A stretch of 64,000 bases of DNA. It comes from Escherichia phage IME178. The DNA is taken from the sequence record NC_104190.1; one strand, written 5' to 3'. The notes beneath the pieces are model-generated. The model ran no database searches. It was not told the origin of the DNA and was given only the letters and a program-made list of their open reading frames with translations. A program made the position numbers and the translations under genes. Numbering within the stretch: position 1 is the first letter of the stretch; each line of letters begins with the position of its first letter. Positions 5,353-47,422 of this stretch are shown here, piece by piece.

Positions 5353-5381
5353 TTGCATAGTGCAAAAAATTTCTGTATAAT
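5353..5381 (+). promoter_or_regulatory. sigma70-type early promoter (TTGCAT-17-TATAAT) with conserved ATAAATTTGAGAGAGGAG leader
   Basis: Leader/RBS runs directly into the ATG at 5413. Confidence 0.5.
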
Positions 5382-5412
5382 AGATTCATAAATTTGAGAG
5401 AGGAGTTTAAAT

Positions 5413-6117
5413 ATGGCTGGTTCTCGTAGAAAGAAACATATCCATGAAATCCCGGATGAAGTCTTTAAAAAGGTTATAGAGCATCTGGAGAACGGTGGTA
5501 CTAAGAAAGCAGCATGTGAAATGCTCGGCGTATCGTCCAATCCAACTATGGAAAGGATGATTGAAGAATGGCAAGACCGCCAGATTCAGGTTGCCGAAAT
5601 GAAGAAAAAGAAACGTGGCACTCTCATTGAAGGCATTGAGTTAGCCAACGTTATTGAGCAGTATTTATCTGGTGATTCTTTTGAAGAAATTGCCGATCGT
5701 AATTATCGCTCTGTAGCAATGGTTAAATCTGTTCTGGAACGATATGGTGCTCTACTTCGTTTGAACGATATTGTAGATCCATTGAATCCTCCAATTATTC
5801 CTGATGATGCTGTAGCAGAAGAATTTGCAGTTGGTGAGCTTGTTTGGGTTCCTGGATACCAGTGTATCGGTGAAATCAAAAAAGCAATGGATAATCCTGT
5901 TGGTTGTTACCGTGTATGGCTTCTATCAGAAGGCAAACAACAGAACGTTCATTATATGAATTACGAGTTGGCCTCTGTTAAACATCTGGAAAAGTTAGGG
6001 GTTGACGTAAAATCTCTAGGATATAAATGGACTAGTGAAGAAATTATTACGTTGATTAACGAAGCTGTTAAGGCTGCCCTGAAACTTGATAAAGAAAAAG
6101 GAAAACGCCGTGAGTAA
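5413..6117 (+). CDS. helix-turn-helix DNA-binding protein (putative regulator)
   Basis: 234 aa; two HTH-like stretches (GGTKKAACEMLGVSSNPTMERMIEEW and SFEEIADRNYRSVAMVKSVLERYG). Confidence 0.55.
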   Translation: MAGSRRKKHIHEIPDEVFKKVIEHLENGGTKKAACEMLGVSSNPTMERMIEEWQDRQIQVAEMKKKKRGTLIEGIELANVIEQYLSGDSFEEIADRNYRSVAMVKSVLERYGALLRLNDIVDPLNPPIIPDDAVAEEFAVGELVWVPGYQCIGEIKKAMDNPVGCYRVWLLSEGKQQNVHYMNYELASVKHLEKLGVDVKSLGYKWTSEEIITLINEAVKAALKLDKEKGKRRE

Positions 6118-7273: not shown

Positions 7274-7582
7274 ATGAGCGAACAGGTAAATCAAAACTAT
7301 GAAGGACACGTTGATGACCAGTCCATCATACTTTGGGAGAAGGAGGGAGAACAAGTAAGATTAACAGTATCTGAATTTCGTGGGAATCTATACATGGGTA
7401 TTCGTTACTGGCTTCTTGATATTAATGATGAATGGTTTCCAACGAAATCTGGCTTCTCTTTTCCTTACACCCTAGAAACAACATCACAGCTTTTCTATGC
7501 GTTTACACAGATTCTTAGCGAATCTGAGGTTTTACATGAAGTACAGAAACGAGCTGAAGAACTCAAAGCCAAGAATGCCTAG
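7274..7582 (+). CDS. hypothetical protein
   Basis: 102-aa ORF; stop codon lies inside the terminator stem. Confidence 0.5.
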   Translation: MSEQVNQNYEGHVDDQSIILWEKEGEQVRLTVSEFRGNLYMGIRYWLLDINDEWFPTKSGFSFPYTLETTSQLFYAFTQILSESEVLHEVQKRAEELKAKNA

Positions 7583-7596
7583 TTCTTGGCTTTTTC
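7568..7596 (+). terminator. rho-independent terminator (GCCAAGAA...TTCTTGGC + TTTTT)
   Basis: Inverted repeat followed by T-run. Confidence 0.6.
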
Positions 7597-7609
7597 TTTA
7601 TAAATGTAT

Positions 7610-7638
7610 TTGCTTTCAACTCAGTTTTATTATATAAT
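7610..7638 (+). promoter_or_regulatory. sigma70-type early promoter (TTGCTT-17-TATAAT) with conserved ATAAATTGATGAGAGA leader
   Basis: Upstream of the ligase N-terminal ORF. Confidence 0.5.
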
Positions 7639-7669
7639 ATTTATATAAATTGATGAGAGATATAAATAA

Positions 7670-8640
7670 ATGACTAATGTAAAAGACTTTATTAAACGCT
7701 GTCAAGAAGCATATTATCAAGGTATGTCTTTAATCTCTGACGAAGAATATGATCGTCTGATTAAAAGATTTCCATTAGAAGAAGAGATCGGGCCTAAGGG
7801 TGATATTCCACATCTGTATCGTATGTATTCTTTACAGAAAGTTTATTATAATCGTGGAGATAAACCTCCGTTCAACCCGTTAGGTCAGGTAGAAACTGAT
7901 AAGTTAGATGGTTGTGCGATTTCTCTGTTATATATTAATGGAGAATTTGTTCAAGCACTAACTCGTGGTAATGGTATTCTAGGGAATGATGTCACAAGCA
8001 ACGTAAGATTGCTGAATATCCCTAAAAAGATTTCCCAAAAAGTACCTACTCAAATCACTGGTGAAGTTCTAATTACAAAAGAAGTAGAAAATAAACGTAA
8101 CTTTGCCTCTGGTGCTATTAACCTCAAAGATAGCGATGATTTCGTACAACGTATTGGGGAAGGTGGTTTAATCTTCGTTGCATATGGTATCCAGTGTTCT
8201 GCTGAATCTGTAGGTATTACAGAAGCGTACTTAAAAGATATGCTCTGGCTGGAGAATGAGACTTCTTAACAGTTGTTAATGTGCGTTCCTTCTTTAAGTG
8301 GATTCCGACGGATGGTAAAGTTGTTCGTATTAATGACAACAACAAATTCTTCCGTGAAGGCTGGACTAATAAATTTCCTCGTGGAGCATTCGCTATTAAA
8401 GAAGATGAAGAAGGCGAGATTACAACTCTTACTAAAGTTGAATGGCAGGTAGGGGCTTCTGGTAAAGTAACTCCAGTTGGTTATTTCGAATCGGTAATTA
8501 TTGATGATGCTACAATTGTTAAGGCGACTCTTAATAACGTTGATTATATTAACTCTCTTGATCTAGAGATCGGTTGCCAGATTCGAGTAATTCGTGCTGG
8601 TGGTGTAATCCCGTGCATAGTAGAGCGAGTATACGATTAA
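7670..8640 (+). CDS. NAD-dependent DNA ligase, N-terminal subunit (adenylation + OB domains); frame break near 8260-8269
   Basis: Two track ORFs (7670..8269, 199 aa, KLDG KxDG motif; 8281..8640, 119 aa) in different frames separated by 11 bp; together about 322 codons. Confidence 0.6.
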
Positions 8641-8692
8641 TATATGTAACCCTTTGCTACCCATCTACCATATAGGAATTATAAAGTGGTTA

Positions 8693-8721
8693 TTGACATT
8701 TTCGCCGCTTAGGTATATACT
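8693..8721 (+). promoter_or_regulatory. near-consensus sigma70 promoter (TTGACA-17-TATACT) inside the ligase spacer
   Basis: Followed by a 7-codon mini-ORF (MARVSKVS). Confidence 0.4.
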
Positions 8722-8785
8722 ATTATCATTCAGTTGAGGGATAGAAAGTTATGGCGAGGGTAAGCAAAGTTAGTTAAAATTGTAG

Positions 8786-8814
8786 TTGCTAAATGCTTAA
8801 ATACTTGCTATAAT
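8786..8814 (+). promoter_or_regulatory. sigma70-type early promoter (TTGCTA-17-TATAAT) with conserved leader
   Basis: Same family; leader AAATTGATAAGGAAG precedes ATG 8845. Confidence 0.5.
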
Positions 8815-8844
8815 ATTTATATAAATTGATAAGGAAGAAATTTG

Positions 8845-9615
8845 ATGAAAATCGAAATTCCAACACAATGTCCCTCTTGTGGTTCTAAGCTAGATCTTGT
8901 CAATGGACAATTATTCTGTCGTAATAAGTCCAACTGTCCAGCGCAATCAAGTAAGTTAATTGAGAACTTCTGTACAAAAATGAAGTTAAAGGGCTTTGGT
9001 CCAAAAACTATTGAGAAGCTGGAGCTGACGAAGATTTCAGAACTATTTTACCTAACCGAACAAGATTTGGTTAGAGCCGTGGGTAGCAAGGTTGCCGCTA
9101 AGTTAATTAGCGAATTAAATACTAAAGTTCGCGGAGACATTGACTTTGGTTCAGTTCTCGGTTCTTTAGGAATCCCTCTAATAGGAGAGGTTGCAGCAAA
9201 GAAATTATCCCAAAATTGCAACAGCTTCCATGATGTGAAGGCTGACGGCAAGGCTGGAGAAAACTATAAAGCCTGGCTAAATTCCCCACAAGGCAAGGAT
9301 GTTATCGAACTACCGTGGAAATTCTCAACTGGTGCTAAAGCTAAAACCGTCGTTACTGATGATTTAGTTGCCCAGCCAAATGGAATCGCGGTATGTATTA
9401 CCGGGTCTTTGCAAGACTTTGCAAATAGAACGGATGCAACAAACTATTTAGAAGGTCTAGGATATACGGTTAAGAAATCCGTTACCAAAGACGTCAAATA
9501 CCTGATCTGTGAGGATGAATCAAAACGTTCTTCCTCATCTTATAAGAAAGCCGAAACGAATGGGATAGAAATCCTGTCGATTAAAGAACTATTGGAGAAA
9601 AATAATAATGTCTAA
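8845..9615 (+). CDS. NAD-dependent DNA ligase, C-terminal subunit (Zn-finger, HhH, BRCT-like)
   Basis: CPSCGS...CRNKSNCPAQ zinc-finger motif; ORF track 8842..9615, ATG at 8845. Confidence 0.65.
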   Translation: MKIEIPTQCPSCGSKLDLVNGQLFCRNKSNCPAQSSKLIENFCTKMKLKGFGPKTIEKLELTKISELFYLTEQDLVRAVGSKVAAKLISELNTKVRGDIDFGSVLGSLGIPLIGEVAAKKLSQNCNSFHDVKADGKAGENYKAWLNSPQGKDVIELPWKFSTGAKAKTVVTDDLVAQPNGIAVCITGSLQDFANRTDATNYLEGLGYTVKKSVTKDVKYLICEDESKRSSSSYKKAETNGIEILSIKELLEKNNNV

Positions 9616-10375
9616 ACTGAACTGGAACGTAGAAGGTGTAACCGAGTCTCTGAAAGCAAAAGCCACTGCTCTGGGTGTTTCTGTAATCTCTCAAGAACAA
9701 GTAGCTGCTATCGCTGCTGAACTGGCTGCTGAAACTGGCAAAGATGTTACTGCTCGCTCTGTTGGCTCTAAACTGCGTAAAGAAGGTTTTGAAGTACAGA
9801 AAGCTAACGAAGTACAGAAATCCCCGTGGACTCCTGAGCAGGAAGCTGAACTGGTTGATTTCCTGAACGCTCATGCTGGTCAGTATACCTATGCTGAAAT
9901 CGCTGCTGCTGTAGCTGGTGGTCAGTTCGGTGCTAAGCAGGTACAGGGTAAGATTCTGAGCCTGGAAATGACCGCTTCTGTTAAGCCAACCGAAAAAGCT
10001 GCTGCTGTTCGTTCCTTCACTCCGGATGAAGAAACTGATTTTGTTAATCAGGTTGTTGCTGGTGCTACTATTGAAGCTATCGCTGCTCACTTCGGTCGTA
10101 ATATCAAGCAGATCCGTGGTAAAGCTCTGAGCCTGCTTCGTGAAGGTCGTATCGCTGCTATGCCGGTACAGGAAACTTCAAGTGCTAAAACTCGTGAAGA
10201 TTTGTTAGAAGGTCTGGATCTGGTTAACATGACTGTTGCTGAGATCGCTGAGAAAACTGGTAAGTCTGAGCGCGGTGTTAAATCTATGCTGTCTCGTCGT
10301 GGTCTGGTTGCTAAGGACTATGATGGTGCCGCTAAGCGTGCTAAACTGGATGCAAAAGCTGCGGCTGCTGAATAA
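9608..10375 (+). CDS. D5-like abundant early DNA-binding protein with four internal HTH-like repeats
   Basis: 255 aa, strongly E. coli-optimal codons; repeated module (W/F)TP(E/D)..E...V...(TYAEIAAAV/TIEAIAAHF)G....(Q/R)GK.LSL. Confidence 0.55.
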   Translation: MSKLNWNVEGVTESLKAKATALGVSVISQEQVAAIAAELAAETGKDVTARSVGSKLRKEGFEVQKANEVQKSPWTPEQEAELVDFLNAHAGQYTYAEIAAAVAGGQFGAKQVQGKILSLEMTASVKPTEKAAAVRSFTPDEETDFVNQVVAGATIEAIAAHFGRNIKQIRGKALSLLREGRIAAMPVQETSSAKTREDLLEGLDLVNMTVAEIAEKTGKSERGVKSMLSRRGLVAKDYDGAAKRAKLDAKAAAAE

Positions 10376-34284: not shown

Positions 34285-34393
34285 AGTTAATTTCTCCTCT
34301 TTAATAACAATATTATAATAGTATTAGAAAATTTTATCAAGAAATTTTTATTTTTCCATAAAGAAAAGGAGGACTCAAAGTCCTCCTCCAGTT

Positions 34394-45657: not shown

Positions 45658-46871
45658 TCTTTATCTCCCTCGGTGGAACCTTGAGGTCTACCACCTTCTT
45701 GACCGGATACGCCTGTTGCAGAACCAGCGACGTTAGCAGGAATACGAATCTTATTCATCTGCTCATCATCTAAAGGCTCAAGGTTCAGCTCTAAACGAGC
45801 TTCGTTACCAGTTATAATACCATTATTAACCAATGAGGTTAAATGTTTAGCCTCAGATTCTTTATCTGGTGTTAATGCAGCTACTTCCTTAGTATTAGGA
45901 GTAATCTTATAACCAAAAAAGAAAGTAAGAGAACTAGTCAGCTTGTTCAGCATAGGGATGATAGTCATGTAATAGAACAGTTCGATGTTTGGTCGAATGT
46001 TCGCGTTATTACCACCATCAAGTAGCACTTGCGGAACACCAAAGGCTAGACAGATAGATTTATTAAATCCTTCGATGTCTTCCTTAAAGTCTAGATCTTT
46101 AAAAGAGGATATTTGGGAGTACGGTTTAGCTTTCATACCACCATCTAGAATCAGGACAGAAGACTGACCCGTACTAGGATTATAATCGAGTTGTAATTCT
46201 TCTTGTTTACGCTCACGCAATTTCTTGTTCAGAATTTCATCCGTCTCAAGAATAAGACCAATCACGGTTCCGTTATCGAGAAACTTCTCTTTAAAGTTAA
46301 GCATCTTGGAACGCTTCTCAAGAGAATCAATAACAGTAGCAACACGAGATTGTCCAGAAATTTGAGAATTTGTGCCACACACGTAACTGTTATCCTTTAT
46401 AAAGATAATCTCATCTACGCGATAGTCTATCTGGTTATTAAATATAAATTTTTTGATAAACTTATTGGCATCTGCCTCTACTTGCATTAGTGCAGCAGGG
46501 ACATGATAAAGTGCTGTGCCATCCCAATAGATGTATGCACAACCTTCAAAAAGTAGGTCAGTGACTACAAGTCTACGGAATGTGCTTATATCCATGAATG
46601 GATTAGGTCGTACATTTAAGAGAGTGTCTAGAGTCTTTGCCTTGATGCCATTGGCATACGTGACAATATTATATTTATCTCCGACAGTATAAGAACACTC
46701 CGCCGCACTATCTATAACCATATTAGCAGTTCTATTGAGAATCTCAATTTTACTGTAGGCTTGTCCAGTGGTAAAAGGCTTACGGTTAGTGCGATGACTA
46801 ACTGGTTCCATGTCTCTTATAATACGTTGACCCGGATTTAGCTTTTCAGTAATCCAGCTTTTAAAACCCAT
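45654..46871 (-). CDS. portal protein
   Basis: 405-aa ORF between terminase and protease genes; acidic C-terminus. Confidence 0.75.
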   Translation of the reverse strand: MGFKSWITEKLNPGQRIIRDMEPVSHRTNRKPFTTGQAYSKIEILNRTANMVIDSAAECSYTVGDKYNIVTYANGIKAKTLDTLLNVRPNPFMDISTFRRLVVTDLLFEGCAYIYWDGTALYHVPAALMQVEADANKFIKKFIFNNQIDYRVDEIIFIKDNSYVCGTNSQISGQSRVATVIDSLEKRSKMLNFKEKFLDNGTVIGLILETDEILNKKLRERKQEELQLDYNPSTGQSSVLILDGGMKAKPYSQISSFKDLDFKEDIEGFNKSICLAFGVPQVLLDGGNNANIRPNIELFYYMTIIPMLNKLTSSLTFFFGYKITPNTKEVAALTPDKESEAKHLTSLVNNGIITGNEARLELNLEPLDDEQMNKIRIPANVAGSATGVSGQEGGRPQGSTEGDKE

Positions 46872-47308
46872 TATAAGAACCTTGCGAATCCTGATTTTGT
46901 TTCAGTCTTGACTTGTGTCTTTTCTTGAGGATTCTGTAATTTGTCTTTCTGCTTTTGAACCCACACTTTTTGCTTATTAGCAGAAAATAAAGGAGGTTCT
47001 TTTGTGTAAACCTTATGTAATAATTGGTGATGGTGTACACAAAGGGTAACAGTGTCTTCTACTAGCTCATGCCTATATCGATCATAGAATGCCGTCCTAT
47101 TTGAAAGGACTATTTCTTCGTCAGTGAAATCCAATTGGAGTTCTTTAGCAAATTTTTTAACTAGTAGAGACACCGTATGGTAATGATGAAGCTCTAATTC
47201 TTCAGCACAACCGCAGATAGCACATTGAGAGTCTTTTTTATATTGACTTTTTATTCCGTCTCTCATAAGGGATATAGCATCGCGTTTATATTTTATATTG
47301 CTTGCCAT
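46871..47308 (-). CDS. HNH endonuclease-like zinc-binding protein
   Basis: CAICGC...HHYH...CVHHHQLLH motifs; ATG at 47308 follows RBS GAGGAG (track ORF 46871..47395). Confidence 0.6.
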   Translation of the reverse strand: MASNIKYKRDAISLMRDGIKSQYKKDSQCAICGCAEELELHHYHTVSLLVKKFAKELQLDFTDEEIVLSNRTAFYDRYRHELVEDTVTLCVHHHQLLHKVYTKEPPLFSANKQKVWVQKQKDKLQNPQEKTQVKTETKSGFARFL

Positions 47309-47422
47309 AGTGTTCTCCTCAACTGTATGAATATAGTATACATAATCGTATCGAATTTGTAAAGGGGATTTTAAAATGCAGGAATGGGATACCAACTGAG
47401 TAGTATCCCTTCCTATACTTAT

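What the first reader, a model, noticed from the sequence alone, without database searches (positions are those of the whole stretch)
8640..8845. Ligase is split into two subunits by a 200-bp spacer carrying a consensus promoter and a 7-codon mini-ORF
The adenylation/OB part and the Zn-finger/HhH/BRCT part are separate genes. The spacer holds a near-perfect sigma70 promoter (TTGACA-17-TATACT), a tiny ORF (MARVSKVS) and a second early-family promoter. This may be the footprint of a lost mobile insertion (homing endonuclease or intein-type), with ligase reconstituted from two polypeptides.
Basis: inference. Interest (0 to 1): 0.4.

Follow-up and report, generated by a model that had tools for sequence, protein, structure and literature searches.

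The report
Known split T5 ligase, promoter spacer
This is the already-described two-gene NAD-dependent DNA ligase of T5-like phages; the 204-base gap between the genes is a strongly conserved pair of promoters for the second gene, not the decayed scar of a lost mobile element.

Summary
ligA ends at 8640 and ligB starts at 8845. The 204-nt spacer holds TTGACA-17-TATACT (P1, 8693-8721), TTGCTA-17-TATAAT (P2, 8786-8814) and a short ORF, MARVSKVS, of 8 codons rather than 7.

The window is a Tequintavirus. The split ligase has been known since the 2005 T5 genome paper, is annotated in hundreds of records, and a homologous two-chain complex is in the PDB (9HU3/9I5I).

All 88 T5-like loci first gathered are split at the same OB/Zn-finger linker, and nearly all carry a strong promoter just upstream of ligB. 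The P1-P2 tandem sits at fixed distances from ligB in every cultured genus examined. Within tequintaviruses it is far more conserved than the flanking coding sequence.

The mini-ORF is not conserved outside tequintaviruses. So the spacer looks like a working promoter module, not a footprint.

The junction can still receive mobile DNA. Two Salmonella phages carry a GIY-YIG endonuclease gene there, other genera carry cargo genes, and a fused 568-aa version exists in one T5-like contig. The origin of the split stays open.

Separately, ligA in this window has a unique 1-nt deletion near 8261 that cuts it into two ORFs.

The parts
7610..7638 (+). Early-class promoter in front of ligA (TTGCTT-17-TATAAT). 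Its -10 and downstream region, 7633-7657, match P2 at 24 of 25 bases.
   Evidence: The corresponding site is annotated as a promoter in AKFV33. A terminator-like hairpin at 7565-7593 lies just upstream.
7670..8269 (+). ligA 5' ORF of 199 aa: domain Ia, adenylation domain with the KxDG lysine K78. It ends prematurely after the frameshift.
   Evidence: Pfam PF01653, E=5.5e-20. K78 aligns with E. coli LigA K115. tblastn covers residues 1-197 in frame 2.
8259..8262 (+). Site of a 1-nt deletion (GAGAAC in relatives, GAGAC here) that shifts the ligA frame.
   Evidence: Alignment. None of 282 matching phage records shares the deletion. ligA is one 972-nt CDS in AKFV33, NR01, SA001 and DaisyDussoix.
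8260..8640 (+). ligA 3' part (motifs IV and V, OB fold), in another frame. An ORF is listed from GTG 8281.
   Evidence: Pfam PF03120, E=8e-22. tblastn covers residues 198-323 in frame 1. Residues 214-320 align with E. coli LigA 284-390.
8641..8675 (+). Variable 5' part of the spacer. This is where a GIY-YIG gene (SP3, RUS_R2) and cargo genes (other genera) are found in relatives. It carries a 2-nt insertion shared with phage DaisyDussoix.
   Evidence: pi 0.050; alignment with SP3.
8693..8721 (+). P1: near-consensus sigma-70 promoter, TTGACA-17-TATACT. The predicted start is near 8728. The conserved initial transcribed region is ATTATCATTCAGTTGAGGGA.
   Evidence: Conserved at -151 to -155 from the ligB ATG in 8 lineages. 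pi 0.004.
8752..8778 (+). Mini-ORF MARVSKVS (8 codons plus stop), preceded by GAGGGA. It is confined to tequintavirus-type phages.
   Evidence: In Sugarlandvirus the ATG is TTG and the ORF is 4 codons; in Slocum it is TTG AGC TAA; it is absent in Vibrio phage River4.
8748..8814 (+). Predicted RNA hairpin in the P1 leader. It pairs the mini-ORF region with the P2 -35, spacer and -10 sequence.
   Evidence: MFE -32 kcal/mol, z=-4.4 for 8728-8865. Analogous hairpins in other lineages give weaker z scores. Function unknown.
8786..8814 (+). P2: T5 early-class promoter, TTGCTA-17-TATAAT with TGn. The predicted start is near 8821.
   Evidence: Annotated in AKFV33. A promoter at this position is nearly universal in T5-like loci.
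8831..8837 (+). Shine-Dalgarno sequence AAGGAAG for ligB.
   Evidence: Sequence. Annotated as a ribosome-binding site in Slocum, Stitch and Sepoy.
8845..9615 (+). ligB, 256 aa: four-Cys Zn finger, HhH and BRCT.
   Evidence: Pfam BRCT and HHH_2. Invariant C9, C12, C25, C31. Matches PDB 9HU3 chain B at E=6e-81, and residues 3-123 align with E. coli LigA 402-530.
9608..10375 (+). D5 DNA-binding protein gene. It overlaps the ligB stop by 8 nt, so it probably lies in the same transcription unit driven by P1 and P2.
   Evidence: Annotated as D5 in relatives. The ligB-D5-helicase order is kept in distant loci.

Best explanation
The window comes from a T5-like phage (Tequintavirus). The finding is the family's known two-gene NAD+-dependent DNA ligase.

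LigA carries domain Ia, the nucleotidyltransferase domain and the OB fold. LigB carries the Zn finger, HhH and BRCT domains. The two are cut apart inside the short linker that joins OB and Zn finger in single-chain ligases, at about E. coli LigA residues 393-400, and they assemble as a heterodimer.

The 204-nt spacer is a functional tandem promoter module. P1 and P2 are both read by host sigma-70 RNA polymerase and start transcription of ligB and the translationally overlapping D5 gene independently of ligA.

A promoter at the P2 position appears to be ancestral to split T5-like ligase loci. P1 was added in the lineage leading to the cultured Demerecviridae. The MARVSKVS mini-ORF is a lineage-specific by-product of the purine-rich, Shine-Dalgarno-like downstream region of P1. 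It is neither a conserved peptide nor a gene stub.

What is shown: the domain content, the conservation of the split point, the conservation of promoter positions, the strong purifying selection on the spacer, and the existence of a solved two-chain homologue.

What is inferred: that P1 and P2 fire in vivo, that they serve ligB and D5 expression, and that the two proteins of this particular phage associate.
For: Identity of the locus:
- 439 phage records match 7600-9700; 429 cover at least 80% of it, nearly all at 90-99% identity, with ligase subunit A and subunit B annotations.
- T5 itself (IMG/VR contig of 121,750 bp, L025) has the same arrangement with a 202-nt gap.
- PDB 9HU3/9I5I hold chain A 'DNA ligase (NAD(+))' and chain B 'DNA ligase subunit B', matching at E=5e-103 and 6e-81.

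Split point:
- LigA residues 214-320 align with E. coli residues 284-390, and LigB residues 3-123 with 402-530.
- All 88 loci are split at the same place.

Promoters:
- Hexamers as found.
- P2's -10 and downstream region match the ligA promoter at 24 of 25 bases (22 of 22 in the blastn match).
- P1 and P2 lie at -151 to -155 and -58 to -60 from the ligB ATG in Tequintavirus, Sugarlandvirus, Novosibvirus and four Vibrio-phage lineages. In River4, the pVp-1-like contig L037 and Sugarlandvirus, P2 scores below the scan threshold and was read by eye. In Slocum both promoters were read by eye from the alignment.
- 35 of 44 distinct regions upstream of ligB score at least 10 of 12, against 18 of 880 coding-sequence controls.

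Selection:
- pi is 0.003-0.007 across 8676-8844, against 0.09-0.15 at third codon positions and 0.02 at first and second positions.

Mini-ORF:
- It is lost or reshaped outside tequintaviruses.
Against: - No transcription-start or expression data for T5 could be found in the paper library. Promoter activity and the role in ligB and D5 expression are therefore inferred.
- Within tequintaviruses the whole 170 nt is nearly invariant, including bases between the two promoter footprints. The P1 leader also folds better than shuffles (z=-4.4). Both hint at an extra RNA-level or protein-binding function that this explanation does not include.
- In this window ligA is frameshifted. If that sequence is correct, no active heterodimer could form in this particular phage.
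Confidence: 0.8

Rival explanations
1. The split, and possibly the spacer, is the scar of a free-standing homing endonuclease gene. Such a gene would have inserted into the OB/Zn-finger linker of a single-chain ligase and later been lost, as in the 'genes in pieces' nrdA of Aeromonas phage Aeh1.
For: - A 218-aa GIY-YIG gene (Pfam PF01541, E=1e-5) lies exactly between ligA and P1 in Salmonella phages SP3 and vB_Sen_SG_WM_RUS_R2. The last ~10 ligA codons there are recoded, as would be expected from co-conversion.
- Other genera carry unrelated cargo at the same junction: a DprA-like gene, a radical-SAM gene, a crAss001_48-like gene and hypothetical genes.
- Fused compact ligases of 555-578 aa exist. 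One of them sits in a T5-like context, A2-like gene then ligase then D5.
- The precedent is described in PMC3045599 and PMC2988022.
Against: - Only 2 distinct phages among roughly 440 T5-like records have the endonuclease gene, so it looks like a recent secondary arrival.
- The window's spacer shows no similarity to that gene. Apart from its first ~35 nt it is occupied by conserved promoters under strong selection.
- The most distant split loci have 55-119-nt spacers made of one promoter and no endonuclease remnant.
- The event is too old for a sequence scar to survive, so the idea cannot currently be tested from sequence.
Confidence: 0.15
2. The mini-ORF is a functional upstream or leader ORF, whose peptide or whose translation regulates ligB.
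For: - A Shine-Dalgarno-like GAGGGA lies 9 nt upstream of the ATG.
- The region is nearly invariant among tequintaviruses (pi 0.007).
- The ORF start lies in the 5' arm of the predicted leader hairpin.
Against: - Sugarlandvirus has TTG and a 4-codon frame. Slocum has TTG AGC TAA. Vibrio phage River4 has no start codon at all. All three keep P1 and P2.
- The three substitutions seen inside the ORF among tequintavirus-type phages all change the amino acid: S5G in SP3, S8N in L018, S8I in L031.
- Other tiny ORFs occur in the same spacer, for example ATG at 8794 followed by MLKYLL.
Confidence: 0.05
3. The P1 leader, about 8728-8830, forms a regulatory or processing RNA hairpin. It could be an RNase III site, an mRNA stabiliser, or part of a promoter-interference switch. 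This would add to promoter function, not replace it.
For: - MFE is -32 kcal/mol against -19.3 +/- 2.9 for shuffles (z=-4.4).
- In Slocum, Proteus phage 1, Sugarlandvirus and L039 a hairpin has its 3' arm over the P2 -35 region, built from different sequences and including G-U pairs.
Against: - The z scores in the other lineages are weak (-0.9 to -3.2 for the full leaders; +0.1 to -3.1, mean -1.45, across eight lineages for the shorter segments).
- The helices are not in the same register.
- There is no Rfam match.
- No U-tract follows the hairpin, so it is not an intrinsic terminator.
- The lineages are not independent.
Confidence: 0.2
4. The two halves are joined after translation by a split intein.
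For: None was found.
Against: - LigA ends at the end of the OB fold, about E. coli residue 393. LigB begins 8 residues before the first Zn-finger cysteine, about E. coli residue 400. No extra ~100-aa or ~35-aa intein halves are present.
- Fused relatives show only a 10-13-aa native linker.
- The PDB entries list two separate chains.
Confidence: 0.01

Closest known systems
Bacteriophage T5 NAD+-dependent DNA ligase subunits A and B (ligA T5.116 / AAU05253 and ligB T5.117 / AAU05254; Wang et al. 2005, Virology 332:45)
   Same: An orthologous locus: 90-99% nucleotide identity for nearly all of hundreds of T5-like records, the same gene order (ligA, spacer, ligB, D5, helicase), the same ~202-nt spacer and the same promoters.
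   Different: This window has a unique 1-nt deletion that frameshifts ligA near 8261. It also has a 2-nt insertion just after the ligA stop, shared only with DaisyDussoix among the records listed.
PDB 9HU3 / 9I5I: 'DNA ligase (NAD(+))' chain A (339 aa) with 'DNA ligase subunit B' chain B (248 aa)
   Same: A two-chain homologue that aligns end to end with LigA and LigB (E=5e-103 and 6e-81). It shows that the halves of such a ligase are handled as a complex.
   Different: It comes from a different, unidentified phage and its sequence has diverged from the window's. No paper on it was found in the library, so its activity data could not be read.
Genes in pieces made by free-standing homing endonucleases: Aeromonas phage Aeh1 nrdA split by mobE (PMC3045599); review of mobile elements in T4-type phages (PMC2988022)
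   Same: An essential DNA-metabolism enzyme is cut at a domain boundary into two adjacent genes whose products reassemble. An endonuclease gene occupies the junction in some relatives (SP3 and RUS_R2).
   Different: In this window, and in more than 99% of relatives, no endonuclease gene is present. The junction instead holds conserved promoters. The split is shared by nearly the whole family, not confined to one phage.
T5 early promoters with a conserved downstream region (TTGCTT-N17/18-TATAATA consensus as annotated in AKFV33; the P_N25 and P_D/E20 type described by Gentz and Bujard, recalled from memory)
   Same: P2 fits the consensus and shares its -10 and downstream sequence with the ligA promoter at 7610 and with other window promoters at 5353, 6394, 12790, 17660, 17761 and 51015.
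   Different: P1 has a consensus TTGACA -35 and a TATACT -10. Its downstream motif TATACT-N5-CAT-N-CAGTTGAGG occurs at only one other place in the window, upstream of an HNH-like gene at 47317-47340 on the minus strand.
Single-chain bacterial LigA (E. coli 2OWO) and single-chain phage NAD+ ligases (for example Burkholderia phage SURPRISE13, 685 aa)
   Same: The same domain order and catalytic motifs.
   Different: Those are one polypeptide of 650-700 aa. The T5 type is compact (323 + 256 aa) and divided. Fused compact forms of 555-578 aa also exist in metagenomes.

Membership tests
T5-type split NAD+-dependent DNA ligase (LigA/LigB) | N-terminal gene encodes domain Ia, the adenylation domain with the KxDG lysine, and the OB fold | tested here: inconclusive
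   All domains and motifs are present (Pfam; K78 aligns with E. coli K115, and motifs IV and V lie at residues 215-220 and 244). In this window, however, they are divided between two frames by a 1-nt deletion. Relatives have one 972-nt CDS.
T5-type split NAD+-dependent DNA ligase (LigA/LigB) | C-terminal gene encodes the four-Cys Zn finger, HhH and BRCT, and starts with its own RBS and ATG | tested here: met
   ORF 8845-9615 with AAGGAAG at 8831-8837. Pfam BRCT and HHH_2. Invariant C9, C12, C25, C31.
T5-type split NAD+-dependent DNA ligase (LigA/LigB) | Split lies in the OB/Zn-finger linker, and the locus is orthologous and syntenic with T5 ligA-ligB-D5 | tested here: met
   Alignments to E. 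coli LigA residues 284-390 and 402-530. 90-99% identity to nearly all annotated records. Same junction in all 88 loci.
T5-type split NAD+-dependent DNA ligase (LigA/LigB) | The two polypeptides associate and seal nicks using NAD+ | not testable with these tools
   There is only indirect support: PDB 9HU3/9I5I contain both chains of a homologue.
Gene fission by a free-standing homing endonuclease (genes in pieces) | An endonuclease gene, or a recognisable remnant of one, between the two halves | tested here: not met
   The 204-nt spacer has no ORF longer than 27 aa and no similarity to the GIY-YIG gene of SP3. The feature is met in SP3 and RUS_R2 only.
Gene fission by a free-standing homing endonuclease (genes in pieces) | Uninterrupted (fused) homologues exist in related genomes | tested here: met
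   Ten fused compact ligases of 555-578 aa appear among the hits. P0031 lies next to T5 A2-like and D5-like genes.
Split intein | Intein N- and C-fragments at the ends of the two halves | tested here: not met
   LigA ends at the OB fold and LigB starts 8 residues before the Zn finger. No extra sequence is present.
T5 early promoter class | TTGCTT-like -35, a 17-18-nt spacer, TATAAT(A), and the conserved downstream region ATTTATATAAATTGA | tested here: met
   P2 at 8786-8814. Its -10 and downstream region match the ligA promoter at 24 of 25 bases. It is annotated in AKFV33. Activity in vivo was not tested.

The most novel reading that the evidence does not exclude
The split may be kept, and may even have been created, because a promoter module has to sit inside the ligase gene. 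Under this reading the ~155-nt P1-leader-P2 unit, with a leader hairpin covering the P2 -35, is a conserved cis-regulatory device. It would uncouple ligB and D5 expression from ligA, for example by timing, dosage, RNA processing or promoter interference. Gene fission would then be driven by transcriptional architecture and not by a mobile endonuclease.
Probability: 0.2. Interest if true: 0.4.

Novelty: already known. Interest (0 to 1): 0.15.

Why it matters
The split ligase is a textbook-level feature of T5 genomes, so the finding adds little to what is known.

This work does add three things:
- The split point and a promoter at the junction are shared by essentially all split T5-like loci sampled. 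That points to a transcription-unit boundary inside an enzyme gene as the conserved feature.
- The junction is used by a GIY-YIG endonuclease and by cargo genes in some lineages, and fused forms also exist. The locus is therefore a usable natural system for studying how gene fission arises and is tolerated.
- The ligA copy in this particular genome carries a frameshift. Anyone annotating or using this phage should check it.

Tried and rejected
- Rfam scan of 8500-9000 at a permissive E-value: no match.

- Literature searches for the paper behind 9HU3, for other descriptions of split or heterodimeric NAD+ ligases, and for T5 transcription-start data: nothing usable.

- I considered that P1 plus the mini-ORF might be the stub of a lost HNH gene. 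The motif TATACT-N5-CAT-N-CAGTTGAGG followed by ATGGC occurs only here and upstream of an HNH-like gene at 46871-47308 on the minus strand. I dropped this idea for two reasons. The same purine-rich downstream box is kept after P1 in genera that have no ATG there. Similar TTCAG..TTGAGG regions also follow the single ligB promoter of distant relatives, so it looks like a promoter-class feature.

- I considered that the mini-ORF ATG might mark the ancestral ligB start, displaced by insertion of P2. This is weakened because the universal promoter sits at the P2 position, not the P1 position.

- Covariation support for the leader hairpin was sought across eight lineages, but the helices are not in register and the z scores are mixed.

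- The NJ tree of LigB-type sequences is too star-like to say whether fused forms are ancestral or re-fused.

- The Enterobacter phage KKP_3711 hit to the spacer is an unrelated early promoter in the tRNA region.

- IMG/VR relatives of the fused protein P0031 that show T5-like synteny all turned out to be split.
Full report
**What is there**

The window around 7.6-10.4 kb carries these features on the + strand:
- a terminator-like hairpin (7565-7593)
- an early-type promoter (7610-7638)
- a ligA-like gene (7670-8640)
- a 204-nt spacer (8641-8844)
- ligB (8845-9615)
- a D5-like gene that overlaps the ligB stop by 8 nt (9608-10375)
- a helicase gene

Pfam places the NAD-ligase adenylation domain and OB fold in the first gene, and HhH plus BRCT in the second. 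The four Zn-finger cysteines are invariant in an alignment of LigB proteins from five genera.

- TTGACA-17-TATACT at 8693-8721, 11 of 12 matches
- TTGCTA-17-TATAAT with a TGn extension at 8786-8814
- a short ORF at 8752-8778

The peptide MARVSKVS has eight codons, not seven.

**Identity and prior knowledge**

Megablast of 7600-9700 finds 439 phage records. Of these, 429 cover at least 80% of the query, and nearly all matches are at 90-99% identity. [quoted passage not shown]

In AKFV33, NR01, SA001 and DaisyDussoix, ligA is a single 972-nt CDS followed by a 202-204-nt gap and ligB. AKFV33 also annotates the P2 site as a T5-consensus promoter.

The literature already describes this:
- PMC3632103 lists ligA and ligB by accession.

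The PDB holds two entries, 9HU3 and 9I5I. Their chains A ('DNA ligase (NAD(+))', 339 aa) and B ('DNA ligase subunit B', 248 aa) align end to end with LigA and LigB, at E=5e-103 and 6e-81. The two-polypeptide ligase is therefore established, and the finding is not new.

**Where the cut lies**

LigA residues 214-320 align with E. coli LigA residues 284-390. LigB residues 3-123 align with residues 402-530. The cut therefore falls in the few linker residues between the OB fold and the Zn finger. There is no extra sequence at either end, which rules out a split intein.

**How old and how general the split is**

I gathered 7 GenBank loci and 80 IMG/VR loci using an alignment of LigB proteins. All of them, down to 39-45% protein identity, have ligA and ligB as separate ORFs cut at the same place. 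The gap varies with lineage:

| Group | Gap between ligA and ligB |
|---|---|
| Environmental contigs | about 30-119 nt (most 53-119) |
| Tequintavirus-type phages, Sugarlandvirus | 199-204 nt |
| Serratia phage Slocum | 185 nt |
| Loci with genes between the halves | 338-1359 nt |

The genes found between the halves include a DprA-like gene, a radical-SAM gene, a crAss001_48-like gene and hypothetical genes.

A search of 1.84 billion representative proteins with LigB returns mostly ~250-aa proteins. It also returns ten fused compact ligases of 555-578 aa, scattered through a poorly resolved tree. One of them, P0031, lies on a contig between a T5 A2-like gene and a D5 homologue. T5-like phages with an undivided ligase therefore exist. 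The fused proteins show a 10-13-residue native linker where T5 has its spacer.

More distant phage ligases, such as that of Burkholderia phage SURPRISE13, are ordinary single chains.

**What the spacer is**

Three lines of evidence say it is a working promoter module.

1. *Selection.* Among 31 distinct tequintavirus-type sequences, nucleotide diversity across 8676-8844 is 0.003-0.007. It is 0.09-0.15 at third codon positions of the flanking genes and 0.02 at first and second positions. Only the first ~35 nt of the spacer vary, with pi 0.05.

2. *Position.* The two promoters keep their distances from the ligB ATG, with -35 elements at -151 to -155 and at -58 to -60. This holds in Tequintavirus, Sugarlandvirus, Novosibvirus (Proteus phage 1) and four Vibrio-phage lineages. 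The sequence between the hexamers changes. In River4, the pVp-1-like contig L037 and Sugarlandvirus, P2 scores below the scan threshold and was read by eye. In Slocum both promoters were read by eye from the alignment. Where cargo genes are present, they lie upstream of this module.

3. *Generality.* The short spacers of environmental relatives consist of little more than one strong promoter. In 35 of 44 distinct upstream regions the best match is at least 10 of 12, with the -35 at a median of -57. The same is true of only 18 of 880 coding-sequence controls.

P2 is a near copy of the promoter in front of ligA, matching at 24 of 25 bases in the -10 and downstream region (22 of 22 in the blastn match). 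It belongs to the window's early-promoter family.

P1 has a different -10 and downstream motif. That motif recurs only once in the window, in front of an HNH-like gene between terminase and portal.

**The mini-ORF**

The mini-ORF is not conserved:
- Sugarlandvirus has TTG and four codons.
- Slocum has TTG AGC TAA.
- River4 has no start codon there.

The purine-rich box upstream of it (GAGGGA) is conserved, but it behaves as part of the promoter's downstream region. I read the mini-ORF as incidental.

**The mobile-element idea**

Salmonella phage SP3, and the related vB_Sen_SG_WM_RUS_R2, carry a 218-aa GIY-YIG gene. Its start overlaps the ligA stop, and it replaces the first ~50 nt of the spacer. 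The last ten ligA codons are recoded there.

That shows the junction is a landing site. But the gene occurs in 2 distinct phages out of roughly 440, and the window's spacer has no similarity to it. The split is far older than any such insertion. Whether the original fission was caused by an endonuclease gene, by a promoter cassette, or by something else cannot be decided from the present data. The Aeh1 nrdA/mobE case (PMC3045599) remains the closest mechanistic precedent.

**An unexplained extra**

RNA from the predicted P1 start (8728-8865) folds at -32 kcal/mol, against -19.3 +/- 2.9 for shuffles, giving z=-4.4. The hairpin (8748-8814) pairs the mini-ORF region with the P2 promoter sequence.

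Other lineages also have a hairpin whose 3' arm covers the P2 -35, made of different sequences. Their z scores are modest and the helices are not in register. There is no Rfam match. I leave this as a lead.

**A defect in this copy**

Relative to every relative examined, the window lacks one A at about 8261 (GAGAAC becomes GAGAC). This ends the ligA frame at 8269 and leaves motifs IV and V and the OB fold in another frame. None of the 282 records matching that segment shares the deletion.

Either this is an assembly error, or this isolate has a broken ligA. Too few window-specific substitutions exist to tell which: 1 non-synonymous in ligA, and 1 synonymous plus 2 non-synonymous in ligB.

**Verdict**

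The feature is already known and interest is low.

Noticed in passing
window 8259-8262 (ligA): A unique 1-nt deletion frameshifts ligA into ORFs 7670-8269 and 8281-8640. None of 282 matching phage records shares it. It could be an assembly error or a genuinely defective ligA.
   Followed up: partly
window 46871-47395 (- strand), promoter at 47317-47363: A 145-aa gene lies between terminase and portal (phrog_3497, weak HNH similarity at E=6e-6, Cys/His-rich). It is preceded by TTTACA-17-TATACT and by the same downstream motif as P1 (TATACT-N5-CAT-N-CAGTTGAGG, then ATGGC). The motif occurs only at these two places in the window, with none expected by chance. An IMG/VR scan found 45 matches, all apparently on T5-like contigs, at most two per contig.
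   Followed up: partly
L033 3184-3840 (Salmonella phage SP3, NC_048001); also PQ002169: A GIY-YIG endonuclease gene is inserted at the ligA 3' end. In GenBank it is annotated only as a hypothetical protein or as part of the ligase. The adjacent ligA codons are recoded, which suggests co-conversion from a different donor lineage.
   Followed up: partly
L158 2151-3857 (Logan contig SRR12825405_74937): A T5-like contig with an undivided 568-aa compact NAD+ ligase, flanked by an A2-like gene and a D5 homologue. Nine other fused compact forms (555-578 aa) appear in the protein library.
   Followed up: partly
L002 1569-1757 (NR01), and the two-piece hits: Some tequintaviruses carry an extra ~180-nt segment with a 62-aa ORF immediately upstream of ligA. 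SP1a has a ~270-nt insertion somewhere in the region. This is another variable spot next to the ligase.
   Followed up: no
window 9608-9615: The D5 start codon lies 8 nt inside the end of ligB, which suggests translational coupling of ligB and D5. The ligB-D5-helicase order is kept in contigs with only ~40% identity.
   Followed up: no
window 34340-34290 (- strand) and 5353-5420 (+ strand): The promoter at 34340 is followed by ATTAAAGAGGAGAAATTAACTATG. The promoter at 5353 is followed by AGATTCATAAATTTGAGAGAGGAGTT. From memory these look like the T5 P_D/E20 RBS and the P_N25 downstream sequences used in expression vectors. Not verified against a reference.
   Followed up: no
L041 564-1568 (IMG/VR 3300008952_002179): A 334-aa radical-SAM protein gene sits between ligA and ligB in an environmental T5-like contig.
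   Followed up: no
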